32,000 nucleotides of DNA from Candidatus Peribacter riflensis (GCA_001430755.1 CP013062.1:600001-632000), one strand, 5' to 3'. Positions 9,443 through 32,000 are shown, numbered from the stretch's first letter. Notes: generated by a model from the sequence alone, not told the origin. Program-made: numbers and translations.

Positions 9443-9494
9443 TGAGCAACGATAAGTAAATCGGCCTTTAACGGAAGGAGGTTTACTGTTAGGA

Positions 9495-9548
9495 GGGTAA
9501 AGGGGGTGTCGGGGGGCTTAGGGAACCGAACAAGGTGCCCTAGCCCCC
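9495..9548 (+). other. G-quadruplex-type motif overlapping a strong hairpin
   Basis: GGG-taaa-GGGGG-tgtc-GGGGGG-ctta-GGG spans 9495-9523. GGGGGCT(T)AGGG at 9512-9523 can pair with CCCTAGCCCCC at 9538-9548. Confidence 0.4.
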
Positions 9549-9625
9549 TGACGAATGAATCAGATTCATCTCTCGTTCAGCGAGAAAACAGATCCCTTCT
9601 TGTCGCGACAAAGGTGGAAAGAGTC

Positions 9626-10924: not shown

Positions 10925-10941
10925 AACCCCCTACCCATCAT

Positions 10942-11000
10942 CCTAACCCTAACCCTAACCCTATCCCTAACCCTAACCCTAACCCTATCCCTAACCCTAT
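10942..11000 (-). repeat. tandem hexamer array (TTAGGG/ATAGGG)x10, read on the minus strand
   Basis: The plus strand reads cctaa CCCTAA CCCTAA CCCTAT CCCTAA CCCTAA CCCTAA CCCTAT CCCTAA CCCTAT. The higher-order unit is 24 bp, (CCCTAA)3CCCTAT. Confidence 0.95.
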
Positions 11001-11857
11001 CCCCTCCTCCGTCTCGCCCTATCGTGCAACACCCCCGTGTACCCCGCGAGCATCATCAGGGCGAACACGGCAGCCTCCGGACCCGATGAAGGCAGCTTCG
11101 TAGGCTGGGTCTTCGCTTCTTTAAGCTCCGTACCCTCCGATGTCGGCTGGAGGGACGGGACGAGAGCGCGCATGGAACTGGAGGACGTGCTCTTCAGCCG
11201 CTCCTCCCGGGCCTGCTTGCGGCGATCTTCGGCCTGGCGCAGCTTTACGCGCCACTCCTCCTCCTTGGCATCGCTGGAGGCGCTCAGGTTCTGCTCCGTC
11301 GGCAGGCGCCCTGCGAGTTTGATCCCCAGAAACTCCTTTCCCTCCAGTTCCTGAAGCCACTCCCCTCCCCACAGAACCGATGCGAGTTCACGATCCCAGT
11401 GCGTGGCACGCTCGCTGGCCAGCGCCCCGCCCACGAACGGAATGAAGGCGGCAAGCAGAAGCACGACGCGCGTCAGGCGGCGGCGCACCACCTGCAGGCA
11501 GTAACTGATGAGTAGAATGAAAGCGATGGTGACGGCGGGCAGCGTCCACCCCCACGTGTACCAGCCGATGAATGAATACGCCCGCGGCACCTCGAGCGCC
11601 ACGATCTCGACTCCGAGCCACAAGAGGAGCATCAATGCAGGAAACCAGTGCAACAGACGGAAGGCGTGATCCGCGCGGCGGCGGCGAAAGAGCGCGAAGA
11701 GCGCGAGGGGATAGAGAATGGAGAGCACGAAAAGGATCGTCCAGGGCACCGCCCCCGCCGGCAGATCAGGCAGCGTGGTGAGCAGAAGCCCCGTGAGGAG
11801 GATGACGGCGCCGAGAAGGAAAACGAGAAAAGTTTCCGTAGCGTGCTTGAGAGGCAT
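10997..11857 (-). CDS. membrane protein of unknown function (N-terminal TM bundle, charged C-terminal half)
   Basis: ATG at 11857. About five hydrophobic helices are followed by a Lys/Glu/Arg-rich region. The stop TAG (10999-10997) lies inside the last hexamer repeat. Confidence 0.8.
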   Translation of the reverse strand: MPLKHATETFLVFLLGAVILLTGLLLTTLPDLPAGAVPWTILFVLSILYPLALFALFRRRRADHAFRLLHWFPALMLLLWLGVEIVALEVPRAYSFIGWYTWGWTLPAVTIAFILLISYCLQVVRRRLTRVVLLLAAFIPFVGGALASERATHWDRELASVLWGGEWLQELEGKEFLGIKLAGRLPTEQNLSASSDAKEEEWRVKLRQAEDRRKQAREERLKSTSSSSMRALVPSLQPTSEGTELKEAKTQPTKLPSSGPEAAVFALMMLAGYTGVLHDRARRRRG

Positions 11858-18908: not shown

Positions 18909-19685
18909 TCAGTCACCTCGCCGATGATCGTGGGCAACCACCCATCCTTCTACAGAGAAGACGCCTGCTTCTCTGAGGGCACGCGCGCAACTCTCAAGTG
19001 TCGCGCCGGTCGTCGAGAGATCATCGATGAGGACGACATGCGCCGGCGGATGATCCGTTGTGCAGCAAAACGCCCCTTGGACCCCCGTGAGTCGTTCTTC
19101 GCGCGTGCGCTTCATCTGCGATCCGGTCCAACGCCTGCGCTTGAGGAGCGGCAGAACGGTGAGTCCCCGCTCTCTGGCAACGACACGGGCGAGAAGCTCC
19201 GACTGGTTGAATCCGCGCTGGAACCGCCGTGCCCAGTGAAGCGGAACCGGGCAGAGAACAATTTCGCGGGATGGTAACCTACGGTTTCCCTCCCGCGAAC
19301 CCACCCTTCCCTCAAAGGTACGGCTCCAACGCCGGGTCCCGTCAGAGCCACCCAGCGTTTCGCCGTGATTGTTTTTTGTTATCTGAGAAGAATGATCAAT
19401 CTCGGTGAGTGTCTGCACGATGAGTCGACCAAGCTCTTTATCCAACCATCGAACGTGTCCGTACTTGAACGTATGAATCGCCTTCTTTAAGAGCGGTGAA
19501 TCCGCATACGTGCTCGCGGCGACGAGGCGATCCAAAGAGCGGATGCCGCGGCGCTTCAGATCGGCAGCTTCTTCGATGACCGGGTGGGGAATGAGTGTGC
19601 GGCGTTCCTCCTCCGTCATCCACTCCCCTTCCGCTCCCGCAAGAGAACGGCGTGGGAAGAAGAGATCGAGGAAGAGCTGCCACAT
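18909..19685 (-). CDS. comF: ComF-family phosphoribosyltransferase-like protein with a 32-aa repeat-derived insert
   Basis: LCPVPLHWARRFQRGFNQSELLA and the PRTase loop VVLIDDLSTTGATL are present. I prefer the ATG at 19685 (MWQLFLDLFFP) to the track start at 19748. The N-terminus has none of the Cys pairs usual in ComFC. Confidence 0.8.
   Translation of the reverse strand: MWQLFLDLFFPRRSLAGAEGEWMTEEERRTLIPHPVIEEAADLKRRGIRSLDRLVAASTYADSPLLKKAIHTFKYGHVRWLDKELGRLIVQTLTEIDHSSQITKNNHGETLGGSDGTRRWSRTFEGRVGSREGNRRLPSREIVLCPVPLHWARRFQRGFNQSELLARVVARERGLTVLPLLKRRRWTGSQMKRTREERLTGVQGAFCCTTDHPPAHVVLIDDLSTTGATLESCARALREAGVFSVEGWVVAHDHRRGD
19262..19362 (-). repeat. copy B of a ~96-nt structured repeat, inside the comF-like CDS
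   Basis: About three quarters of positions match 27994-28094 in my hand alignment of the reverse complement, with one 1-nt indel. The copy is bounded by CGAAA pentamers exactly 96 nt apart. Confidence 0.85.
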
Positions 19686-19786
19686 GCCAAAAAGTGTACT
19701 CCTCGGTGTGCATGCTGTTGAGAACGGTGAGCAGAGTTGAGGTAGCAAGGATCACAGTCCCGACAGTTTGAAGAAACAGCTGTTGG

Positions 19787-19822: not shown

Positions 19823-21349
19823 ATGGCAAGCACAGAAGAAATTGGGAATTCTCCCAAAGGCGAAAACAAGGAAACAATGACTGAGAACACCAAAGATCGT
19901 CTGCTCGTTCTCCGGAAAAAAATCGAGGAGGGTGCAGTGCAAAGATGGGAGGCAGTCTTCGAGAATCAGAAAGTACCCGCACTGCATCTTTCTCCACAGG
20001 AGATTCAGGCGTGGTCACGCGTGTACATGTCGAATATGCAAGTGTCGGGACGACTCTGGTCAGTGGAAGACAACGCTATTGGCAAAATAGAGGAAATGAC
20101 TCTCATCAATGTCCGCGGAAAGAACGCGACATTGCTGAGTGCCGAAGTGCTATCCATCGCACGCACATTTGCGGACCGGAAACTTGTCATTCTCTGCAAA
20201 CAGCCTGAAATGGGCATCCAGGCATTTGAGGAAAAAGCTATGCAAGAATTGCTGCAGCAAGGACTGCAAGATACGAAGAACGTCCATTTTCGTTATGCAG
20301 AACATTATCGTGATCATTGGGCGAGAGACAACTTCTTGCGGGTCTATGACTATCGCTACGGGAAGAATGTCTTCGTTCACTCAACCCAAAATGAGCGAGG
20401 AGCATTTGCGAAGGAGTTGGCGGAACAAGATGCCGAACAACGATCAATCCATGAAGAGATCCCCTTCTATTTTGAGGGAGGTGATCTTCGATCAGTTGGC
20501 CCCTATTTGTTCATAGGGAAAGAATCGCTTGAAAAAGCTGGACATGCCCTGAGAGGAAATAAAGTGGATGTGCACCCGAAGCTGGTACCCATGAATATGA
20601 ATCCCGGCGAAGAGGACTTTTATGCACAGAAGAGAACGGAGACATCATCAGAAGATAGGGAGGCGCAAGAAAAAATTCTCCAGAGCCTTGGGGAGCTTTT
20701 TGGACGGAAGGTGGTGACAGTGGGAGAGGGTGACAAGTATGAGCAAGCCCTATTTCACATTGATATGTTCATCACGTTCCTTCCCAACGCGGATCAGAAA
20801 CCGACGGTTGTGGTCGGGGACATCGGTCAAACGATGAGCATTCTCGATCAGCTTTCCGAGAAAGAATGGAATCAAACCCATCAGACAATGCTTGGTTCGC
20901 AAGTGCTGCTCGGGACTGGAAAACAGCACACCATCATCGACTTGTCTCGAAATAAAGAGGACGTCGTCCGCGAGATGAAAACAGAGTCCAGCACAAGACT
21001 CCTTCGAAGAGGGCTCGATGCAGCTGCTGATTGGTTCGCGAATCAAGGATTCTCTGTTGTACGAACACCGACAGTCATTTCACAGAAGCATTCCAGATAC
21101 AGGGCATACAACAATGCGATCGTTGAGGCCTATGTGGATAAAGATGGCAACCTGAAGAGAAAAATATATATTCCTTCTTTTGGCATTTCTCCTCTCGAGC
21201 ACGTCCTTGTTCAGAAATACAATACGTTAGGATATGAAGTGATTCCCGTTCCCAATCTCTCTTCGTCAGCGGAAAACAGAGGTTCTCTCAATTGCCTCAC
21301 CTCAGAGAAACGTTTCCAATTCGACAAAGAGTACCGGGAAGGACAGTGA
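19823..21349 (+). CDS. guanidino-group-modifying enzyme, agmatine deiminase / Porphyromonas-type peptidylarginine deiminase fold, with a ~170-aa N-terminal extension
   Basis: HWARDNF, FYFEGGDL..LFIG, ALFHIDMFITFLP, RAYNNAIVE, IYIPSFG and the C-terminal GSLNCLTSE (catalytic Cys block) appear in the order expected for this superfamily. G+C is visibly lower than in neighbouring genes. Confidence 0.7.
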   Translation: MASTEEIGNSPKGENKETMTENTKDRLLVLRKKIEEGAVQRWEAVFENQKVPALHLSPQEIQAWSRVYMSNMQVSGRLWSVEDNAIGKIEEMTLINVRGKNATLLSAEVLSIARTFADRKLVILCKQPEMGIQAFEEKAMQELLQQGLQDTKNVHFRYAEHYRDHWARDNFLRVYDYRYGKNVFVHSTQNERGAFAKELAEQDAEQRSIHEEIPFYFEGGDLRSVGPYLFIGKESLEKAGHALRGNKVDVHPKLVPMNMNPGEEDFYAQKRTETSSEDREAQEKILQSLGELFGRKVVTVGEGDKYEQALFHIDMFITFLPNADQKPTVVVGDIGQTMSILDQLSEKEWNQTHQTMLGSQVLLGTGKQHTIIDLSRNKEDVVREMKTESSTRLLRRGLDAAADWFANQGFSVVRTPTVISQKHSRYRAYNNAIVEAYVDKDGNLKRKIYIPSFGISPLEHVLVQKYNTLGYEVIPVPNLSSSAENRGSLNCLTSEKRFQFDKEYREGQ

Positions 21350-22447: not shown

Positions 22448-22915
22448 ATGACAGACACCCACACCCTCATCAGCTGGACCGCTCCCGAGCGCCCTCCGCA
22501 CAACCGCGGAAAGCGCTGGTACCTGATCGCCGGAGTGATCGCGGCACTCCTCTTCGGCTATGCGCTCTTCACACAGGCCTGGACCTTCGCCCTGGTCATC
22601 GCGCTCCTCGCAGTCACCTACGCCATCATCCATCACAAGCCGCCCCTGTCGCACTCCGTACAGGTGACGGCGCACGGACTTACGTGGGACAAAACGATCA
22701 TTCCCTGGAGTGTACTGAGCGGATTTTGGATGTTGCAGGGGCCCGGGTACATCGAACTCCACATCGAACGAAAAAAGTCTGGAGGCCGGCTCACGGTACA
22801 GACGGGCGATTGTGTTCCGTTGGAAATTGCCGAGACGCTCTCGCAATTCATCCCACTGATTCAGGACCGGAGAGAAAATATACTTGACTACATTATTCGC
22901 ATCTGTAAACTTTGA
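22448..22915 (+). CDS. small membrane protein: N-terminal 2-TM hairpin plus a PH-like soluble domain (guess)
   Basis: LISWTAPERPPHNRGKRWYLIAGVIAALLF.. is followed by a second TM helix and a ~90-aa domain. Its stop TGA at 22913-22915 is 1 nt from the next ATG. Confidence 0.75.
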   Translation: MTDTHTLISWTAPERPPHNRGKRWYLIAGVIAALLFGYALFTQAWTFALVIALLAVTYAIIHHKPPLSHSVQVTAHGLTWDKTIIPWSVLSGFWMLQGPGYIELHIERKKSGGRLTVQTGDCVPLEIAETLSQFIPLIQDRRENILDYIIRICKL

Positions 22916-22916
22916 C

Positions 22917-25900
22917 ATGCTGAGCTTCAACGCCTTCGTTCGCTTTGCTCTCAGCCGCTCTCCCCTCCGGGAGCAGCGCGAACTCCTGTTCAGCGCCAAA
23001 AAGAAAGACCCGACACAGGAAGGGCAGACCGGCCCGCAGGAAACACCCGAAACGGAACGCTCGTTTGATGATGACCGCCTTGTGGAGCGCGAAGCACAGG
23101 AAACCGGTGCACAGATCTCTTCGGTGCTCCGCACGTTAGACAGTCAGGAAATTTTTGACCGCCTGGGCGAAGAACTGAAGAACGGAGAGGCGTTTGACCG
23201 CCTGTTCACCCACGAAGAGTCGACAAAAGGCATTGATCTCTCCTCCATTGCAACGAGATCAGGAATCGCGATTTACATGTCAGAGCGGGATTCCGTCCTG
23301 CCGCAGGGAACCCCGCGCGAAGTGCTCTCCGCCATCATCGACTTCGATACGCAGAAGGGATTCCCCATCGAAGTGAAGCGGACATTCATCGAGATGCTCC
23401 TGCGTGGGGCCCCCCGCATGACCGCCACATTCGCACGGGCAACGGTGACACGCATCAGAGACTACGAAGAGCAACAGGCAGCCATCGAAACCGCACGCAA
23501 GCGCTTCGAGACGGAAGAGATGCTCGGCAAGATCGGCCCGAAAGGCATGGCGGTGGCATCGCGCTTAAGTCTCGGAGAGATCCCGAATATCCAGGCTGCC
23601 GTGAACGAGATCGGAGCGAAGCACCCGCTCAGCATGGATCAGGTCCGCGAGCTCTACACAACACTCGACAACGTGAGTGAGGCGATGCGCAAAGTGAGAG
23701 AATTCGGCAACCGCTACTGGGGCACTGCCGAAGTGCTGCCGCCAGAGAAAGACGAACAACGGCAACTCGAGTACCTGCATCACCTCAAAGAGCAGGCACG
23801 CGATCTCTCGCGGCTGCTCTCGATTCAACTGAGACTGGGCGCACAGGACACGGTGCAACACCTGGAGGAAGGCGCGGCAGAAGCCATGAAGCAACCAAAG
23901 GCGCAAGGCATGGAAGATGCGATTCAGAGGAGCGCGGCGGATCCGGGCATGCGTGCCCTCAGGCTCATCGCAAAGGTGGATGACCCGCAGAACGATCTCG
24001 TGCAGGATCCCAACAATCCGCACTTCACGCAGCTCTCAGATGCATTCCTCCGCGAGTCCGAGCAACACCTGGCTACGCTCGATTCCATTCAGGAAGACAG
24101 CAATCAACTCCTGGCGCGTTGGAAGAGCCCCGAAGGACTGACCGATGAAACCCGCGACCAGAAGGGACGGCATGAATGGGCCGAACGATGCCGCACGATG
24201 GTGCAGACCATCCTGACGGACCCTGCGCTCAGCGCTAAAACGAAGCAACACCTTGAACAATTCAACGAGCAATTGCAGGATCCCGCCGCCCTCTCCGCCT
24301 TCAGCGAGAAGGAAATGGTGCGGGAAGAGTACGGCGCAAAAATTCTGCTCGAGCAGGGAGAAGCCGCGTTCACCGAAGCGAAACAGGAAGGCACGGACAC
24401 GCTGCACACCGTGATGAGCGAACTCACGGATACAGACACCCTCGCGTGGATCGATGCAAAAAAGAAGGAGGCAAAGACTCTGGAAGACGAACTCTCCGCC
24501 CTGCTCACACACCCCGTATGCCCGGCACTGGGCATCGTAGGACTCGTGCAGTCCTACTCCCGCGATCTGCAGGGTGAGCTCACGTTCCTTGCAGAAACCA
24601 GAATCCCGGATGCGCAGAAGAAGGAGATGTGCGAACGGATCGGCGTGCAACTGCAACACTGGCAACAGGCATACACGCTCGTCCGCAAGCTCGAACAGGC
24701 GACTGCCCATGTGCCGCCGGAGGGAAACGAATGCATCCGCGTCCTCCCGCGGGAGGAATACCTCGAAAAATTCGGCGTCGAGACATCCCGTGCATGCTAC
24801 TTCCGCGGATTCATCTACATGCGCGGAGATGTGCCGGAGGACGAGCGGCCCGCACTCATCGAACATGAGAAAGGACACTTCCTCATTGCGATTCTCAGCG
24901 ATCAATCACACCTCTTCCCCGACCTCCTGGAACGGTCTTTCGGCGAACCGACACCCGAACACTGGACCCTGCTCGAGTCGAAGGCGAAGGGATGGGGAAT
25001 CAGCAAAGAAGATATCCGCACCCAGTACCGGAGGGAGAATCCGACTCTTCCCGAAGCACTGTTGAATGCGCGCGTGGAGGCCCGCTACCGGCGTGCACTT
25101 CTGGAAGAGGCGACGGTGCGCGGGGCACTCGCTCCGGAAGGGCACGGGGATCGGCAATGCTTCGAAGGCCTGAAGAAAGAAGAGCTCGTGCAATTTGAGA
25201 GCGCCACGCCACTCCACTCTACGGACGATGAAGCGTTCCCCGTCGATGCGGAGGCGATGCAGCAGGCTCCCGCTGACACCAATTCCTACAACGCGCACGA
25301 GGATCTGGAAGCCATTGACCGCATGGTCAACGGCATCAAGACATTCGGCAATGCCTACGGCACACGTGATCCGCGCGGGACGAGCCGTCACTTCGACCCG
25401 CGCATAAAGCAGCAGGCCGATGCGATCGTGGATGGCGACGGGGGGTACCAGGATATCCTCGACGAACTCAAATTCATCCACACGAACGGCCAAACGCGCG
25501 CCGGGGAATCGGTGGATCCGCAGTACAACACGAAGTACCGGGAAACGGTTCTCAGATTCAAAGAGCACGTCAAGCAAACCCATGACCAGGTGGACGCAAT
25601 AGAAAAGTATTTCGCCGAGATCGCAAAGGAGCCCATGTCGAAGAAGAAGACGATCTCAGAGAAACTGGGCATCCAGTGGCTCTGCATCCTCGACATCATG
25701 CGCATGTACAAAGAGTTCGTGGAGGATATCGAAGGCATGTGGCACTCCATGCAGGACCAGAAAACCGCCGACGCCAAAGCGGCATTGACGAAAAATCTGC
25801 CCGTCTACATCCCCGGCACCAAAATCAAGATCCCCATCATCGGCAAGTACACCGAACGCCTGCCGCACTACACGGAACGCGCGCGGAACAGCAAAGAGCT

Positions 25901-27470
25901 CGAGCGTGTCAAGAAGTGGGAAGATTCCTTCACCAACCTCGACGCGGAAGAGCTCCTCGATTTGATCGGCAAAACACCCACCAGAGACCAGCTGCGTGCC
26001 AGTATCGAACTGCTCGTCAAAAAGGGCCGCATGAGCTGGGGGGACCACCGCGTCTGGAAGGCGCTCAATCAGAAATCGAATTACAAGATGCCCTTCGGCC
26101 CCTGCGAGCGGGATGAGACGCTGCGCGACAAGTGGCTGCATAAGCTGATCTCGGACATCTGGAACGACAAAGACATGTTCAACGAGTGGATGACGGGCAA
26201 CAGCGGCAATTTCGACAAGCACAAGCAGTCTTACACCCACGAAGCAGACAACTTCGCCAACATCGCGGGCAAGACGGCCTACGAGCTGCACGTGATGCTC
26301 AGGACATACGTGGAGTGCCACGATAAGGGCGGGAACTTGATCAAGCCGATGCCCGAGGAGGTGAACCCCCATCACTTCGAGGAGCTGCTCGTCTACTCCA
26401 TGCGCAACGGCAAGATGAGTATGGAGCAGAAAATCTACTATCTGATCCAGGGTGTCGCTTCCGGGTTTTTGACCCTGGAACGACTGCGTGCCATCGCGGG
26501 CGAGAAGGGAGGCGTCCTGCTCAAATTCCCCTTCTTGGACTACTTCTACCAGCGGCACAATACGCTCCCCGAAATCCGCTCTATCGCAGCACGCATTACG
26601 GAGAGAGGCCCCGACGGCAAATCAACCTTCCTGCCCGGTGCCAAGACAACGATGTTCATGCGCCTCGTGATCCTCCGCGACCAGAAGGCCCTCGAACGTA
26701 TTTCCAAGGCACTGGACAAGGGCGCAGAGGGGCTGGACCACGAAGATATTCCATACATCGCCACCGAGATCGACTGGGTGAAAATGGGAGGCCTGCTCGA
26801 CGTGATGAGCGGAGGCCGATCCAAAGTGTCGAAGGAAGGATGGAAGAACGCCTACGTGGGATTCAATGAGAAATTCAAGGTCTACGCGCACCTGGCCAAG
26901 CTGGCGAAGAATAAACGGGCGATGTTCACCGAGGAGGACGCGAGGAATCTGGCACAATCCGTCGGCGCGTACATCGTGATGGATAACCAGATGATGCGCG
27001 CGGTCAAGCTCAAGAACGGAGGAATGATCTCCCTCTCGCGCGAGGCGCTGGAGACCGAGCGGCCGGTGGCAAACCCCGCACTGCGCACGGCGGATTACCG
27101 CAACCGCTCGCGCGACTTCATCTTCGACCTCGTGGGGCGGCTGGGGATGCAAGATAGCGACCTCGGCGTCAAGGACCTCACCCTGCAGCAATTCCTCGCG
27201 AACCGCGACCGCGACCAGCGCAGCATCACCAGCGAAGAGCAGGACAAGATCGAAAAGGCAAAAGAGCCGTTCATCACGGCACTCGCAAGGAAGATCGCGA
27301 CCAGTGGGGGCACCCAAACCCTCATGGACGTGCTCGCCGAATTCGAAGACACCACATACGCCGCCGGGGGCAAATTCCTCGACAGTCATACCGAAGATGT
27401 CAATGAAACGGAACTGCAGAAATACCACGGCGAATTCGCGAGGCGCTATCAATCGATCGTCGGACAGTAG
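22917..27470 (+). CDS. 1,517-aa orphan protein with a single HExxH (HEKGH) putative zinc-peptidase motif
   Basis: A long uninterrupted frame with normal composition. All antisense ORFs here are Arg/His-rich shadows. The ATG at 22917 is preferred to the TTG at 22884. I see no TM segment or signal peptide by eye. HEKGH is encoded at 24864-24878. Confidence 0.85.
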   Translation: MLSFNAFVRFALSRSPLREQRELLFSAKKKDPTQEGQTGPQETPETERSFDDDRLVEREAQETGAQISSVLRTLDSQEIFDRLGEELKNGEAFDRLFTHEESTKGIDLSSIATRSGIAIYMSERDSVLPQGTPREVLSAIIDFDTQKGFPIEVKRTFIEMLLRGAPRMTATFARATVTRIRDYEEQQAAIETARKRFETEEMLGKIGPKGMAVASRLSLGEIPNIQAAVNEIGAKHPLSMDQVRELYTTLDNVSEAMRKVREFGNRYWGTAEVLPPEKDEQRQLEYLHHLKEQARDLSRLLSIQLRLGAQDTVQHLEEGAAEAMKQPKAQGMEDAIQRSAADPGMRALRLIAKVDDPQNDLVQDPNNPHFTQLSDAFLRESEQHLATLDSIQEDSNQLLARWKSPEGLTDETRDQKGRHEWAERCRTMVQTILTDPALSAKTKQHLEQFNEQLQDPAALSAFSEKEMVREEYGAKILLEQGEAAFTEAKQEGTDTLHTVMSELTDTDTLAWIDAKKKEAKTLEDELSALLTHPVCPALGIVGLVQSYSRDLQGELTFLAETRIPDAQKKEMCERIGVQLQHWQQAYTLVRKLEQATAHVPPEGNECIRVLPREEYLEKFGVETSRACYFRGFIYMRGDVPEDERPALIEHEKGHFLIAILSDQSHLFPDLLERSFGEPTPEHWTLLESKAKGWGISKEDIRTQYRRENPTLPEALLNARVEARYRRALLEEATVRGALAPEGHGDRQCFEGLKKEELVQFESATPLHSTDDEAFPVDAEAMQQAPADTNSYNAHEDLEAIDRMVNGIKTFGNAYGTRDPRGTSRHFDPRIKQQADAIVDGDGGYQDILDELKFIHTNGQTRAGESVDPQYNTKYRETVLRFKEHVKQTHDQVDAIEKYFAEIAKEPMSKKKTISEKLGIQWLCILDIMRMYKEFVEDIEGMWHSMQDQKTADAKAALTKNLPVYIPGTKIKIPIIGKYTERLPHYTERARNSKELERVKKWEDSFTNLDAEELLDLIGKTPTRDQLRASIELLVKKGRMSWGDHRVWKALNQKSNYKMPFGPCERDETLRDKWLHKLISDIWNDKDMFNEWMTGNSGNFDKHKQSYTHEADNFANIAGKTAYELHVMLRTYVECHDKGGNLIKPMPEEVNPHHFEELLVYSMRNGKMSMEQKIYYLIQGVASGFLTLERLRAIAGEKGGVLLKFPFLDYFYQRHNTLPEIRSIAARITERGPDGKSTFLPGAKTTMFMRLVILRDQKALERISKALDKGAEGLDHEDIPYIATEIDWVKMGGLLDVMSGGRSKVSKEGWKNAYVGFNEKFKVYAHLAKLAKNKRAMFTEEDARNLAQSVGAYIVMDNQMMRAVKLKNGGMISLSREALETERPVANPALRTADYRNRSRDFIFDLVGRLGMQDSDLGVKDLTLQQFLANRDRDQRSITSEEQDKIEKAKEPFITALARKIATSGGTQTLMDVLAEFEDTTYAAGGKFLDSHTEDVNETELQKYHGEFARRYQSIVGQ

Positions 27471-27518: not shown

Positions 27519-27959
27519 ATGCAGGTCGCCATTCAGCGGGTCGATGCCTCTCTCCCCCTCCCCAGTTACCACACGGCCGGGGCAGTGGGCTTTGACCTGA
27601 TCACGCGCGAGACGACGGTGATTGAGCCCAAGAAGATCGCGCTGGTTCCGGGCAACGTGATCGTGAAGGTGCCGGAAGGGCATGCCCTCCTGATCCTCCC
27701 CCGGTCCTCCCTCCCGAGGAAGAAGGCGCTCGTCTGTCCACACTCGATCGGCGTCATCGACTGCGACTACCACGGGCCGGAGGATGAGATCAAAGTGCAG
27801 GTGCAGAACATTTCCGATGCGCCCGTCACCGTGGAGCGCGGCGAACGCATCGCGCAGGGCATGTTCGTGAAGGTGGAGCGCGCGGAATGGGCCGAAGTGG
27901 ACGGGCACGGCGCGCAGACGCGGGGCGGATTCGGCTCCACCGGCACTCACGTTCAGTAA
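27519..27959 (+). CDS. dut: dUTP diphosphatase
   Basis: GAVGFDL, LPRSSL, GVIDCDYHGP, GERIAQ and the C-terminal RGGFGSTG. Confidence 0.9.
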   Translation: MQVAIQRVDASLPLPSYHTAGAVGFDLITRETTVIEPKKIALVPGNVIVKVPEGHALLILPRSSLPRKKALVCPHSIGVIDCDYHGPEDEIKVQVQNISDAPVTVERGERIAQGMFVKVERAEWAEVDGHGAQTRGGFGSTGTHVQ

Positions 27960-27993
27960 TACTTCGTCGCGCAGCGACGATAAACACGCATCG

Positions 27994-28094
27994 CGAAGCC
28001 GCGGGTGGCTCTGACGGGCCCCGCGGCTGGAGCGATACCTTTGAAGGGAAAGGAGAGACCGTGAGAGGGAAACCGTAGGTTTCCCTTTCACGAA
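27994..28094 (+). repeat. copy A of the ~96-nt structured repeat, in the dut/ftsZ convergent spacer
   Basis: Helix 1 is GCCGCGGG (27998-28005) paired with CCCGCGGC (28020-28027). Helix 2 is 15 bp, CGTGAGAGGGAAACC-gta-GGTTTCCCTTTCACG (28060-28092). It is homologous to 19262-19362 on the opposite strand. Confidence 0.85.
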
Positions 28095-29345
28095 TTACTT
28101 GCTAATCGGCTTTCTCATGAACGCGGGCACCTCCAGCTCTTCTTCGCTCAAACCCAGCGTGCTCGTCTTGGCGGGCTCCAGGAATGAGGTCTTGGCCGGT
28201 TCGCGCCGGCCCTGAGATGCGTCGAAGGATTCCTCACTGAAGCGTGCAGGCTTGTGCACGCCGGGCTTGATGCCGCGTGCCGCGCCGATGGCCGGCAGCC
28301 CATCCAAATGCGCCTCGTCGAAGCCCGTCGCGATGACGGTCACCTTCACCTCGCCCGTGAACTTCTCGTCGATCACGGCTCCGAAGATGACGTTCGCCTC
28401 GGGATCGGCCGCCTCGGTGATGATGCGCGCCGCCTCGTCCACCTCGAACATGCTCAGGTCATTGCCGCCCGTGATATTGAAGAGCACGCCCTTGGCACCA
28501 GAGATCGAAAGATCGAGCAGGGGGCTATCGATGGCCGCACGGGCCGCCTCGGCGGCGCGGCTGTCGCCGGTGCCGTAGCCGATGCCCATGAGCGCCGTGC
28601 CGGCATCCTGCATGATGGATTTCACGTCGGCGAAGTCCACGTTGATGAGACCATGCTCGGTGATGAGGTTCGAAATGCCCTCGATGGCATGCTGCAGCAC
28701 CTCATCCACGACCTGGAAGGCCTCGGTGAGCGGGGTGGTCTTGTCGATGAGCGAGAGGATCTTGTCATTCGGAATCGTGATGAGCGTATCCACCTTGCCC
28801 TTCAGATTCGCGATGGCATCCTCGGCCTGCTGCTTTCTCTTGAGCCCCTCGAAGCTGAACGGCTTGGTGACGACCGCCACCGTCAGAATCCCCATGCTCC
28901 GGGCGATCTCGGCAATCACATGGATGCTTCCGCTGCCCGTTCCGCCGCCCAGTCCCGCCGTGATGAAGATCATGTCTGCACCCTCCAGGGCTGCCTGGAT
29001 CTCGGCGCTGCTCTCCTCCGCGGCCTTCTTTCCCACATCCGGATTGGCACCGGCCCCCAGTCCCCGCGTCGTTCCGCGACCGATGGTGATCTTGCGCGGA
29101 GCCGGGTTGTGGTAGAGCGCCTGCATATCGGTGTTCAGGGCGATGAATTCCACGCCCTGCACCTTGGAGTCGATCATGCGCTTCACGGCATTGCTGCCGC
29201 CGCCGCCCGTACCAAGGACGACTAAACGTGCGCCGGGCGTGGCCTCGGGACGCACCTCGCGCGAGACAATCGGGCTGTCATCATGATTGGAACCATTCGA
29301 TGATGCGCGGGAGCCGGAGAAGAGAGAGCGGAGCGTATCGGACAT
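28095..29345 (-). CDS. ftsZ: cell division GTPase FtsZ
   Basis: The tubulin signature GGGTGSGS, NTDMQAL, and the C-terminal peptide LEVPAFMRK. Confidence 0.97.
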   Translation of the reverse strand: MSDTLRSLFSGSRASSNGSNHDDSPIVSREVRPEATPGARLVVLGTGGGGSNAVKRMIDSKVQGVEFIALNTDMQALYHNPAPRKITIGRGTTRGLGAGANPDVGKKAAEESSAEIQAALEGADMIFITAGLGGGTGSGSIHVIAEIARSMGILTVAVVTKPFSFEGLKRKQQAEDAIANLKGKVDTLITIPNDKILSLIDKTTPLTEAFQVVDEVLQHAIEGISNLITEHGLINVDFADVKSIMQDAGTALMGIGYGTGDSRAAEAARAAIDSPLLDLSISGAKGVLFNITGGNDLSMFEVDEAARIITEAADPEANVIFGAVIDEKFTGEVKVTVIATGFDEAHLDGLPAIGAARGIKPGVHKPARFSEESFDASQGRREPAKTSFLEPAKTSTLGLSEEELEVPAFMRKPISK

Positions 29346-30890: not shown

Positions 30891-31853
30891 TCAAAAGAGC
30901 GTCGGCTGATCGAGCTTCACACTCACCGGTGAGGGCATCGCTGCAGCCGCCTCTGCATCGGCATGCGCCTTGCCGAAGGCTGTTATGAGAAGCGACTGGA
31001 AGCGCTTGATGAGCAGAGTGAACTGCATGTCACGGAAGAATTCCAACACCTGAGTGGTGGGAAAAACGCCGAGCTGCACATCTGCGAGAGAGAGCGGAAG
31101 CGGCATGTCGGAAATCAGTGCAGCCATCCGCTCGCAGAAGAACGCCTGCTCGCGATCCGCCGCGAGCTTCTCGTGGACGGCGGGCCGAATCTCATCCAGA
31201 TGATCGTAGACGCCCTTGAGGGTGTCGTACTTCTGCAGCAGCTCCGCCGCGATCTTGGGCCCGATGCCTTTCACTCCCGGCAGGTTATCGGATTGGTCGC
31301 CGGTGAGTCCTTTATAGGAGGCGATCTGGTCGGGCCGGACCCCGTACTTCGCCTCGATCTCCTTCGGTCCCAGGTACTCCGCCTGCTGGTACCCCTTGTG
31401 CGGAATGGCGATGCGGATCTGATCACTGGCGAGCTGCAGGGCGTCGCGGTCCCCTGTCACGATAGTGACCCTCATCCCAGCCTTCTCCGCCAACCGCGCG
31501 TAGGCGCACAGCAGGTCATCGGCCTCGTACTTGGGATTCGAGACATGGGGAATACCGAACGTCTCGATGAGCTCAAGGATGCGCGGAATCTGCACGTAGA
31601 AATCGTCGGGGGTTTCGGCGCGGCCCGCCTTGTAATCTTTGGCCTCCTGATGGCGGAAAGTTTCATCGCCCTCGTCGAAGCAGAAAAGGAGGGCATCCGG
31701 CTCCTCTTTGCCGAGAATGGAAAGGAGCATGGAAGCCACGCCGAAGACCGCATTCGACTGCTCGCCCGACTGGGTTTTGAGCGTGCGCGGGATCGCCCAG
31801 TAGGCCCGGTACATAAGGTGATGCCCGTCAATCAATACAAGATGCTTCATCAT
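30891..31853 (-). CDS. stand-alone 5'-3' exonuclease (Pol I N-terminal/FEN-like domain)
   Basis: LVLIDGHHLMYRAYWA, VTGDRDALQL, and the H3TH motif SDNLPGVKGIGPKIAAELL. At 320 aa it has no polymerase domain. Confidence 0.9.
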   Translation of the reverse strand: MMKHLVLIDGHHLMYRAYWAIPRTLKTQSGEQSNAVFGVASMLLSILGKEEPDALLFCFDEGDETFRHQEAKDYKAGRAETPDDFYVQIPRILELIETFGIPHVSNPKYEADDLLCAYARLAEKAGMRVTIVTGDRDALQLASDQIRIAIPHKGYQQAEYLGPKEIEAKYGVRPDQIASYKGLTGDQSDNLPGVKGIGPKIAAELLQKYDTLKGVYDHLDEIRPAVHEKLAADREQAFFCERMAALISDMPLPLSLADVQLGVFPTTQVLEFFRDMQFTLLIKRFQSLLITAFGKAHADAEAAAAMPSPVSVKLDQPTLF

Positions 31854-31909
31854 AAGAAGAAAAGGTGGCTTGCCCGGCGTAGCCCGAAGGGCGAAGTCGG
31901 GTGGCCATC
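31854..31909 (-). terminator. long GC-rich hairpin plus U-tract immediately upstream of the exonuclease start
   Basis: The minus strand reads GATGGCC-a-CCCGAC-ttc-GCCC-ttc-GGGC-tac-GCCGGG-caa-GCCACC followed by TTTTCTTCTT and then ATGATG. It is probably the terminator of an upstream gene beyond the window end. Confidence 0.45.
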
Positions 31910-32000
31910 AATGAGGACAAGATGCTGCACCGCATGAGCATGCAGCAGAGGCGTTCAAAAGGCAAAAAGGCGGCCCCGCATCCCCCCTCTTCTTGCCTGA

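What the first reader, a model, noticed from the sequence alone, without database searches (positions are those of the whole stretch)
19262..19362. 96-nt structured repeat inserted in frame inside the comF-like gene
The minus-strand CDS reads ...NNHG-ETLGGSDGTRRWSRTFEGRVGSREGNRRLPSR-EIVLCPVPLH. The extra 32 codons lie between two CGAAA pentamers (plus-strand TTTCG at 19358-19362 and 19262-19266) that are exactly 96 nt apart. They are a copy of a sequence also found in the dut/ftsZ spacer (27994-28094). Removing one pentamer plus the insert leaves ...NNHGEIVLCPVPLH, a normal short connection into the conserved VPLH/RGFNQ block of ComF-type proteins. The insert carries a 9-bp hairpin and a near-complete 15-bp hairpin, which is unusual inside coding sequence. 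In-frame colonisation of ORFs by palindromic repeats is established for Rickettsia palindromic elements. This looks like the same behaviour by an unrelated element.
Basis: partly seen in the sequence, partly recalled or inferred. Interest (0 to 1): 0.75.

Follow-up and report, generated by a model that had tools for sequence, protein, structure and literature searches.

The report
Structured repeat embedded in-frame in ComF
A roughly 119-base, two-hairpin repeat that normally sits just behind gene ends in Peribacter-type bacteria has one copy inside the competence gene comF, where it is read as an extra floppy protein loop, and its DNA has changed far less than the gene around it.

Summary
The comF insert is a 117-119-nt unit (19261-19379, minus strand), not 96 nt. 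The two CGAAA pentamers are conserved internal parts of the element, not a target duplication.

It belongs to a new, Rfam-absent family of two-hairpin elements restricted to Peribacteraceae (Peregrinibacteria, CPR). I found two copies in this window and about 24 elsewhere. Thirteen of 26 stem pairs covary.

Eighteen of 24 non-ComF copies lie 1-11 nt behind the 3' end of a gene on the opposite strand (FtsZ, DnaA, DnaX, GyrA, HisRS, tRNAs). A T-rich run follows on that strand. This is terminator-cassette-like, closest to pneumococcal SPRITE or REP. No TIR, TSD or transposase was found.

The ComF copy occurs only in ComF alleles P0001-P0007. It lies in the opposite orientation to the others, keeps an open frame, and encodes a 39-aa loop that AlphaFold2 models with low confidence.

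It is 97-100% nucleotide-identical across three relatives (88% in a fourth, L007), while the rest of comF is 79-80% identical and neighbouring genes 77-87%. Its few stem changes are compensatory.

RPE-like behaviour is supported for this one gene. The strand on which the element acts and the cause of its conservation remain unresolved.

The parts
19261..19379 (-). ComF-embedded copy of the element. This is the conserved block; the translated insert is 39 codons at 19263-19379, TKNNHGETLGGSDGTRRWSRTFEGRVGSREGNRRLPSRE.
   Evidence: The covariance model scores 128 bits over 19256-19373. The block is 100 / 97.4 / 99.1 / 88.0% nt-identical to the orthologous copies in L001 / L003 / L005 / L007, with sharp boundaries. 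It is absent from insert-free ComF.
19368..19379 (-). A-rich 5' box (ACAAAAAACAAT). Its complement is a T-rich run that follows hairpin 1 on the plus strand.
   Evidence: The 12 nt 5' of hairpin 1 hold a mean of 6.1 A in 21 copies, against a background of 22% A. The box is conserved within the ComF block.
19320..19366 (-). Hairpin 1: a 5-bp outer helix, a GA/GGA internal loop, a 9-bp helix and the apical loop GGGUGGCUCUGACGGG.
   Evidence: MFE fold. In alignment A3, helices 8-12/51-55 and 15-23/39-47 are 98-99% paired, and 8 of their 14 pairs show double changes.
19298..19319 (-). Purine-rich single-stranded linker (ACCUUUGAGGGAAGGGUGGGUU), of the ComF-type subfamily.
   Evidence: Alignment A3. 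The same subfamily linker occurs in the intergenic copies L029 9715-9833 and L011 1391-1508.
19265..19297 (-). Hairpin 2: a 15-position stem with two conserved mismatches and the loop CC-GUA-GG.
   Evidence: Compared with L007, a G-C pair has become A-U by two synonymous changes.
18909..19685 (-). ComF/ComFC-type gene, 258 aa from ATG at 19685. The mechanical ORF extends to TTG at 19748.
   Evidence: It is 100% identical to P0001, and homologues are named ComF family. There is a weak Pfam Pribosyltran hit. The AF2 model has pLDDT 86, and its best PDB match is H. pylori ComF 7p0h_A (E = 1.5e-5).
27978..28094 (+). Intergenic copy filling the dut/ftsZ spacer: A-box 27978-27989, hairpin 1 27990-28036, linker 28037-28059, hairpin 2 28060-28092.
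   Evidence: The covariance model scores 128 bits over 27983-28101. MFE is -62 kcal/mol, z = -6.6. The copy is absent from the same spacer in L001, L003, L005 and L007.
28095..29345 (-). ftsZ. Its stop codon (TTA on the plus strand, 28095-28097) lies 2 nt beyond hairpin 2 of the intergenic copy.
   Evidence: Pfam Tubulin and FtsZ_C; sequence; stop-offset analysis.
27519..27959 (+). dut (dUTPase), convergent with ftsZ. It ends 18 nt before the A-box.
   Evidence: Pfam dUTPase.

Best explanation
The segment is the core of a roughly 119-nt copy of a two-hairpin interspersed element specific to Peribacteraceae.

Normal habitat and likely role (inferred): the family normally sits directly behind gene 3' ends. 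Hairpin 2 lies 1-11 nt from a stop codon or a tRNA CCA end on the opposite strand. A pyrimidine-rich tract and then hairpin 1 plus a T-rich run follow on that strand. I infer that it works as a terminator / 3'-end cassette, SPRITE- or REP-like, that is gained and lost at gene ends.

The ComF copy (shown): one copy entered the loop of ComF that precedes the conserved VPLH/RGFNQ block. It is oriented so that the T-run precedes the hairpins, opposite to all other copies relative to the adjoining gene, and it sits in an open reading frame.

Translation (inferred from the intact ORF, purifying selection downstream and the AF2 model): the copy is transcribed and translated with comF as a 39-aa Arg/Gly-rich loop that leaves the fold intact.

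Why it persists: it changes far more slowly than comF, including at synonymous sites, and its stem substitutions are compensatory (shown). From this I infer that the nucleic-acid structure itself, on the comF-sense strand, is under selection. The most likely form is an RNA structure acting on the comF transcript or on local transcription.
For: Family and structure:
- About 24 non-ComF copies were found in Peribacteraceae MAGs and metagenomes, and none in viral contigs.
- 98.7% of stem cells are paired and 13 of 26 pairs have double changes. The covariation score is 0.428 against 0.204 when shuffled (0 of 500 shuffles reach it).

Genomic context:
- 18 of 24 non-ComF copies abut the 3' end of an opposite-strand gene: FtsZ, DnaA, DnaX, GyrA, HisRS, TruB, LGT, sortase, a cupin protein, tRNA-Pro, tRNA-Cys and unnamed ORFs.
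- In tail-to-head gene pairs the orientation is the same.
- The A-run 5' of hairpin 1 averages 6.1 of 12 nt. On the other strand this is a T-run starting 2-4 nt after the helix.
- Syntenic sites differ in presence or absence between relatives.

The ComF copy:
- It is present only in P0001-P0007.
- Insert-bearing ComF P0001-P0006 form a clade with 78% bootstrap support.
- The insert region has pLDDT < 50 and no secondary structure, in a model with mean pLDDT 86 and pTM 0.83 whose best PDB match is H. pylori ComF.
- The insert is 100 / 97.4 / 99.1 / 88% nt-identical to the four orthologues, against 80 / 79 / 79 / 71% for the rest of comF.
- It shows 0-1 synonymous codon changes in 39 codons in three of the four comparisons (5 in L007), against 57-63 in about 218 codons outside. 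Neighbouring genes are 77-87% identical.
- Window versus L007: A-U became G-C in hairpin 1, G-C became A-U in hairpin 2 and G.U became A-U. No stem pair is broken.
Against: - Strand signals conflict. The hairpins fold better on the comF-sense strand: RNAalifold gives -44.9 against -28.7 kcal/mol, and interior G.U:A.C is 17:2. That strand is antisense to the abutted genes.
- A simple terminator scan calls nothing canonical at either window copy or in the one L019 stretch scanned.
- Terminator-like sites are not enriched in the window at all.
- A pure terminator role gives no reason for conservation of the inverted ComF copy.
- Orthologous intergenic copies (L034 versus L035) are no better conserved than dnaA beside them.
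- There are no transcript data.
- The complete P. riflensis genome could not be scanned.
Confidence: 0.5

Rival explanations
1. The element is a functional structured RNA made from the comF-sense strand. It could be a small RNA gene, with the A-box (consensus TGAAAAAAT) as an extended -10 promoter, convergent with the abutted gene and sharing hairpin 2 as a bidirectional terminator. Alternatively it could be a cis-acting RNA. On this view the ComF copy is a working copy nested in an ORF.
For: - Folding energy and G.U/A.C asymmetry favour this strand.
- The apical loops and the GA/GGA internal loop are invariant while the stems covary.
- TG often precedes the A-run.
- The ComF copy is sense-oriented and very strongly conserved, A-box included.
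- MITE-derived sRNAs are known in Coxiella (PMC10969869).
Against: - The A-box ends only 2-4 nt before the covarying outer helix. A start site about 7 nt downstream of a -10 element would delete that helix.
- There is no consistent -35 element and no promoter-scan hit.
- No U-tract follows hairpin 2: mean 3.4 T in 12 nt.
- Loop invariance is partly imposed by the search pattern used to collect copies.
- Copies found only by the covariance model vary or lack loop 1.
- There is no Rfam match.
Confidence: 0.22
2. The element is a selfish, non-autonomous mobile element, moved as single-stranded DNA or by recombination. The ComF copy is a tolerated passenger. Its near-identity between lineages reflects recent horizontal spread, such as homing or gene conversion after DNA uptake, rather than selection.
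For: - Presence or absence varies at syntenic sites.
- Copies cluster locally and in tandem. Five of 11 unbiased genome-scan hits lie in the roughly 45-kb dnaA-ftsZ neighbourhood.
- Folding is strand-specific.
- The insert is 100% identical between the window and L001, although the window lineage is the outgroup in the rseP, dnaA and ftsZ trees, with insert-less L034 and L035 nested among insert-bearing lineages.
- The genomes are mosaic: L001 and L005 are 96-99% identical in neighbouring genes but 84% in comF.
Against: - No terminal inverted repeats or target duplications exceed chance.
- No transposase appears among the called genes of the loci.
- Copy number is low, and paralogues within one genome differ by about 15-25% with compensatory changes. 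This does not look like a recent burst.
- The conserved block ends within 1-3 nt of the element ends in three independent pairwise comparisons. Recombination tracts would not do this.
- Stem changes within the ComF orthologues are compensatory.
Confidence: 0.2
3. The 39 residues are an ordinary lineage-specific ComF loop, and the intergenic look-alikes are fragments copied from comF, or the resemblance is due to chance.
For: The insertion point is a variable loop. P0015 and P0051 carry unrelated short GC-rich expansions there.
Against: - The family occurs in genomes whose ComF lacks the insert (JAUSKD: L018 and L035).
- Copies score 90-134 bits, while 713 kb of unrelated DNA gives none.
- Stems covary, and this is not a coding-sequence pattern.
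- Synonymous sites are frozen.
Confidence: 0.02

Closest known systems
Rickettsia palindromic elements (RPE; Ogata et al. 2000, as summarised in PMC10969869)
   Same: Both are hairpin-forming repeats of about 100-150 nt, found both between genes and inside an ORF. The ORF copy is in frame, translated with the host protein, and placed where the fold tolerates it.
   Different: - The sequence is unrelated and the phylum is different (CPR).
- Only one of about 29 copies is ORF-internal, whereas nearly half of the RPE copies in R. conorii are.
- There is no shared family peptide.
- This family has a strong preference for the first nucleotides behind gene 3' ends.
- The ORF copy is conserved well beyond its host gene.
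[quoted passage not shown]
   Same: - Low-copy interspersed repeat with a long stem and a T/U-rich tract.
- A-run and T-run termini.
- Strongly enriched close to the 3' ends of CDSs, especially convergent ones.
- No demonstrable target duplication and no matching IS ends.
   Different: - This element has two different hairpins with conserved loops and an internal loop, and is G+C-rich.
- Its stop codons often overlap the element.
- It also abuts tRNA genes.
- One copy lies inside an ORF.
- It folds best on the strand opposite to the one carrying the T-run.
REP/BIME elements and their RAYT transposases
   Same: Both are extragenic palindromes at gene 3' ends and between convergent genes. Hairpins are maintained by compensatory change, and strand-specific folding is plausible. 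A GTAG motif is present in the hairpin 2 loop.
   Different: - REPs are 20-40 nt, present in hundreds of copies, carry the GT(A/G)G at the hairpin foot and are linked to a RAYT gene.
- Here the unit is about 119 nt with a few copies per genome and no RAYT seen in the loci. RAYT was not searched genome-wide.
Bacterial MITEs (Correia/NEMIS, ERIC, RUP, BOX)
   Same: Small, non-coding, structured and interspersed. Some MITEs act as terminators, RNase substrates, promoters or sRNA sources, and some fuse in frame with ORFs (PMC10969869).
   Different: The defining terminal inverted repeats and target-site duplications were tested here and not found. Copy number is low, and no parent IS was identified.

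Membership tests
Rickettsia palindromic elements (RPE) | Repeat of about 100-150 bp with a stable predicted hairpin structure | tested here: met
   The unit is 119 nt with two hairpins. z = -4.1 to -6.6. 98.7% of stem cells are paired.
Rickettsia palindromic elements (RPE) | Many copies inserted in frame in unrelated ORFs, encoding a conserved family peptide | tested here: not met
   Only ComF carries an internal copy among about 29 distinct copies. The peptide has no true relatives among 1.84 billion representative proteins. A few genes merely take their last codons and stop codon from the element.
Rickettsia palindromic elements (RPE) | The inserted peptide is compatible with the host protein fold (surface position) | tested here: met
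   In the AF2 model, residues 111-113 and 115-138 have pLDDT < 50, and residues 106-141 have no secondary structure, between helix 81-105 and strand 142-146. The rest of the model is confident. The best PDB match is ComF 7p0h.
Rickettsia palindromic elements (RPE) | Sequence homology to RPE families of Rickettsia | not tested
   No RPE sequences were available in the tools. The host is Peregrinibacteria.
MITE | Terminal inverted repeats | tested here: not met
   The best inverted matches between the ends are 3-6 nt, against about 4.3 nt expected by chance.
MITE | Target-site duplication flanking each copy | tested here: not met
   Flanking direct repeats are 3-7 nt, against about 4.2 nt expected. 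The CGAAA pair is internal to the element. No clean empty site was available.
MITE | A cognate autonomous IS with matching ends | not testable with these tools
   Whole genomes could not be scanned. No transposase appears among the called genes near copies.
REP/BIME | Short (20-40 nt) palindrome in hundreds of copies, with an associated RAYT gene | tested here: not met
   The unit is about 119 nt. One to three exact-pattern copies occur per species-representative genome. RAYT was not searched.
REP/BIME and SPRITE-like terminator repeats | Location at gene 3' ends or between convergent genes | tested here: met
   18 of 24 non-ComF copies lie within 11 nt of an opposite-strand gene end.
Intrinsic (Rho-independent) terminator / SPRITE-like | G+C-rich hairpin followed directly by a U-rich tract on the transcribed strand | tested here: inconclusive
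   On the strand of the abutted gene, hairpin 1 is followed after 2-4 nt by a T-rich run averaging 6.1 of 12 nt. However, a simple scan calls none, and the hairpins fold better on the other strand.
Any Rfam 15 RNA family | Score at or above the family's gathering threshold | tested here: not met
   Only two tRNAs pass in the window. Permissive scans of three copies give only chance-level hits.
Diversity-generating retroelement TR/VR pair | Two copies that differ only at adenines of the template, with the ORF copy hypervariable | tested here: not met
   Differences between the two window copies involve all four bases. The ORF copy is nearly invariant among orthologues.

The most novel reading that the evidence does not exclude
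The comF-embedded copy is a working non-coding element nested inside a translated ORF. On this reading it is a strongly conserved 119-nt structured RNA (or single-stranded DNA signal) selected at every codon position while the host gene diverges around it. It might regulate comF or produce a small RNA. Alternatively it could be a homing-type element that spreads between Peribacteraceae lineages into the same comF site by transformation and recombination.
Probability: 0.3. Interest if true: 0.75.

Novelty: new variant of a known kind. Interest (0 to 1): 0.55.

Why it matters
- Interspersed structured repeats have, to my knowledge and in the papers searched here, not been described for CPR/Patescibacteria. 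These genomes are small and poor in mobile DNA.
- This family offers a handle on how such organisms end transcripts and reshuffle gene ends.
- It supplies a second, independent example of the RPE phenomenon, in which a hairpin repeat is turned into protein sequence.
- Unlike RPEs, the ORF copy is conserved far beyond its host gene and shows compensatory substitutions. That makes a concrete, testable case of overlapping nucleic-acid and protein constraints in a competence gene.

Tried and rejected
- Rfam at gathering and permissive thresholds: nothing relevant.
- CGAAA as a target duplication: rejected, because it is internal and conserved in the aligned copies.
- TIR/TSD search: chance level.
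- DGR template/variable repeat pair: rejected.
- Sigma-70 promoter and simple terminator scans at the copies: no calls. Window-wide scans are at chance level.
- A-box as a -10 promoter element: the geometry is unfavourable, since it lies 2-4 nt from a covarying helix.
- Ideas considered only by reading the sequences, with no formal test. None was consistent across copies, and all were dropped:
  - a pseudoknot between loop 1 (GGCUCU) and the linker (AGAGCC);
  - a loop-loop kissing interaction (ACGG with CCGU);
  - a 5-codon mini-ORF (AUG/GUG ... CCG UAG) in hairpin 2;
  - parS-like or integron attC-like readings.
- Viral contigs: a loose pattern gave 120 chance matches with no covariance-model hit, and the strict pattern gave none.
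- The short insert of P0015 at the same ComF loop is unrelated.
- Peptide search: only chance SDGTxxW-repeat proteins.
- GC skew could not place the origin relative to the copies.
- Weak covariance-model hits at window 9451-9560 and 31813-31912 (12-14 bits) were not accepted as copies.
- Extending the P. riflensis-type sequence by about 12 kb found no further copy.

Full report
OBSERVATION.

The minus-strand ORF 18909-19748 encodes a ComF-type protein. The likely true start is the ATG at 19685, giving 258 aa that are 100% identical to P0001 from Candidatus Peribacter riflensis. The ORF contains the quoted extra residues.

TTTCG pentamers lie at 19262-19266 and 19358-19362. A related sequence in inverse orientation fills the spacer between the convergent genes dut (27519-27959, plus strand) and ftsZ (28095-29345, minus strand). 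It is 77.7% identical over 103 nt, E = 3e-17.

Both copies fold into a long hairpin, a purine-rich linker and a second hairpin. Their energies are 4-6.6 standard deviations below those of dinucleotide shuffles.

BOUNDARIES.

Three lines of evidence agree:
- similarity between copies;
- the block conserved among ComF orthologues;
- the residues that are extra relative to insert-free ComF.

All three begin at an A-rich box (ACAAAAAACAAT, 19368-19379) and end at ...CCCGCGAAAT (19261). That is 39 codons, TKNNHGE...LPSRE, at 19263-19379.

The 5' 'GCGAA' is invariant or nearly so across the 21 aligned copies and the 3' 'C(A/G)(C/T)GA(A)' recurs in most of them, at unrelated sites. They are element sequence, not a target duplication. 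Flanking direct or inverted repeats do not exceed chance.

THE FAMILY.

One scan each of species-representative genomes and of metagenome contigs was run with a two-core pattern. The genome scan gave 11 true hits out of 13, and the metagenome scan 9 out of 11. All true hits are in Peribacteraceae or Peregrinibacteria.

A covariance model (R1) built from 21 distinct copies found further divergent copies. It found nothing in 713 kb of unrelated viral DNA and no further copy in this window with filters off. The total is 5 orthologous ComF copies and about 24 other copies at roughly 20 sites.

The structure is strongly supported:
- 98.7% of stem cells are paired;
- 13 of 26 pairs show changes on both sides;
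- the covariation score is 0.428, against 0.204 in shuffles (0 of 500 reach it) and 0.03-0.10 for slid controls.

Rfam 15 has no matching family. The 2016 Peribacter genome paper does not mention the element.

Variants exist with large insertions in either loop, or with hairpin 1 shortened or missing.

WHERE THE COPIES SIT.

In 18 of 24 non-ComF copies, the base of hairpin 2 lies 1-11 nt from the 3' end of a gene on the opposite strand. Sixteen of these are stop codons, several of them supplied by the element's own TAA or TGA. Two are tRNA 3' ends (CCA ends). The abutted genes include FtsZ, DnaA, DnaX, GyrA, HisRS, TruB, LGT, a sortase, a cupin protein, tRNA-Pro and tRNA-Cys, plus several unnamed ORFs.

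Spacing on the A-box side is loose. Between co-directional genes (dnaA to the 122-aa gene; the 289-aa gene to enolase) the orientation rule is the same.

Reading the strand of the abutted gene gives this order: stop codon, hairpin 2', a CU-rich tract, hairpin 1', then a T-rich run averaging 6.1 of 12 nt. This layout resembles a terminator cassette. The closest published analogue is pneumococcal SPRITE, a low-copy terminator-like repeat enriched next to the 3' ends of convergent CDSs, with no demonstrable target duplication (PMC3049150).

Sites are polymorphic:
- The dut/ftsZ spacer holds the element only in the window lineage. It carries unrelated hairpins, or an Avd-like gene, in four relatives.
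- L001 and L005 carry a copy upstream of enolase, where the window has a CCCTAA-type tandem repeat.
- L034 and L035 carry one behind dnaA, where the window has none.

Copies also cluster. Seven sites fall in the roughly 45-kb dnaA-ftsZ neighbourhood across eight genomes, and tandem copies are interleaved with tRNA genes.

THE ComF COPY.

Only ComF clusters P0001-P0007 carry the insert. The nearest insert-free homologues (P0008 onward) and all more distant ones have a short loop there. A genome with element copies elsewhere (JAUSKD: L018 and L035) has an insert-free ComF.

In the ComF tree, P0001-P0006 form a clade with 78% bootstrap support. The position of P0007 is unresolved.

The ComF copy is oriented opposite to all others relative to the adjoining gene, so the T-run precedes the hairpins in the direction of comF transcription. 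The frame is open in three of six frames, including the comF frame.

AlphaFold2 with 108 homologues gives mean pLDDT 86 and pTM 0.83. Most of the insert region (residues 111-113 and 115-138) has pLDDT < 50, and residues 106-141 have no secondary structure, between helix 81-105 and strand 142-146. The best PDB match is H. pylori ComF, 7p0h_A, E = 1.5e-5. The insert therefore behaves as a tolerated loop, as RPE peptides do (PMC10969869).

UNEXPECTED CONSERVATION.

| Comparison (window versus) | Insert, nt identity | Rest of comF, nt identity | Synonymous codon changes in the insert (39 codons) |
|---|---|---|---|
| L001 | 100% | 80.3% | 0 |
| L003 | 97.4% | 79.3% | 1 |
| L005 | 99.1% | 79.3% | 0 |
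| L007 | 88.0% | 70.9% | 5 |

Outside the insert there are 57-63 synonymous codon changes in about 218 codons. The conserved block ends within 1-3 nt of the element's ends, with synonymous differences in the very next codons. Neighbouring rseP, dnaA, ftsZ and dut are 77-87% identical in the same comparisons.

Against L007, the stem substitutions are:
- A-U to G-C in hairpin 1;
- G-C to A-U in hairpin 2, by two synonymous changes;
- G.U to A-U.

No pair is broken. This points to selection on the folded nucleic acid within the ORF.

Two observations keep a horizontal-spread explanation alive:
- In housekeeping-gene trees the window lineage is the outgroup, and insert-less L034 and L035 are nested among insert-bearing lineages.
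- Orthologous intergenic copies are not unusually conserved.

UNRESOLVED STRAND QUESTION.

Context and the T-run point to the strand of the abutted genes. Yet the hairpins fold better on the comF-sense strand: RNAalifold gives -44.9 against -28.7 kcal/mol. Interior wobble pairs favour that strand as well, at 17 G.U to 2 A.C in intergenic copies.

A promoter reading of the A-box is geometrically awkward, because it lies 2-4 nt from a covarying helix, and it gets no support from scans. The element may act on both strands as a bidirectional terminator between convergent genes, or it may be recognised as single-stranded DNA. I could not decide between these.

VERDICT.

This is a real, new, lineage-restricted structured repeat family. 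Its usual behaviour is that of a gene-3'-end, terminator-like cassette. One copy has been captured in frame in ComF, in the manner of an RPE. That copy is conserved beyond its host gene.

It does not hold for the family as a whole, and the proposed 96-nt size and target duplication are wrong.

Noticed in passing
window 10925-11012: About 12 tandem units of CCCTAA/CCCTAT (TTAGGG-like on the other strand) lie between the enolase start and the stop of the 286-aa gene. This is exactly the spacer where relatives L001 and L005 carry a copy of the element, and the flanks are homologous.
   Followed up: partly
window 27960-28094 versus L001 2637-3057, L003 761-887, L005 2641-2782, L007 2986-3078: The ftsZ/dut spacer is non-homologous in every relative. 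Each has its own purine/pyrimidine-rich hairpins. L001 has a 123-aa Avd / 23S-rRNA-IVP-like gene flanked by inverted repeats there.
   Followed up: partly
window 18909-19685 and L001/L005 10001-10792: comF is far more diverged than its neighbours between the close relatives L001 and L005: 84% nt identity against 96-99% for rseP, dnaA and ftsZ. This suggests allele replacement or fast evolution of this competence gene.
   Followed up: partly
window about 9-35 kb equivalent; L014 2234-2353, L020 707-828, L034 13410-13564, L035 13467-13587, L003 18542-18772: Element copies are concentrated in the dnaA-ftsZ neighbourhood. There are 7 different sites across 8 genomes, and 5 of 11 unbiased genome-scan hits fall there. 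Several abutted genes are replication genes (DnaA, DnaX, GyrA). This could reflect an origin-proximal function, local hopping or sampling.
   Followed up: partly
L019 4102-4676 and L025 3080-3498: Tandem copies on one strand are interleaved with tRNA genes (tRNA-Cys, tRNA-Leu and a tRNA-like fragment) on the other strand. Some of these copies lack hairpin 1.
   Followed up: partly
L003 18542-18772; L034 13410-13564: Some copies are modular variants. One has 71-nt and 28-nt insertions in the two apical loops. Another has the apex of hairpin 1 replaced by a longer hairpin.
   Followed up: no
window 27964-27981: A small hairpin, TTCGTCGCGCAGCGACGA, lies just upstream of the A-box of the intergenic copy. 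A similar GCGTCGCGGAGCGACGG precedes the copy in L009.
   Followed up: no
window 19823-21349 and 22884-27470: A 508-aa protein divergent from comF and a 1528-aa protein have no Pfam match. The 1528-aa gene is conserved in synteny in all relatives.
   Followed up: no
window 9451-9560 and 31813-31912 (plus strand): These are weak covariance-model matches: 12 and 14 bits, E about 0.1 and 0.04 with filters off. They could be decayed copies or chance.
   Followed up: no
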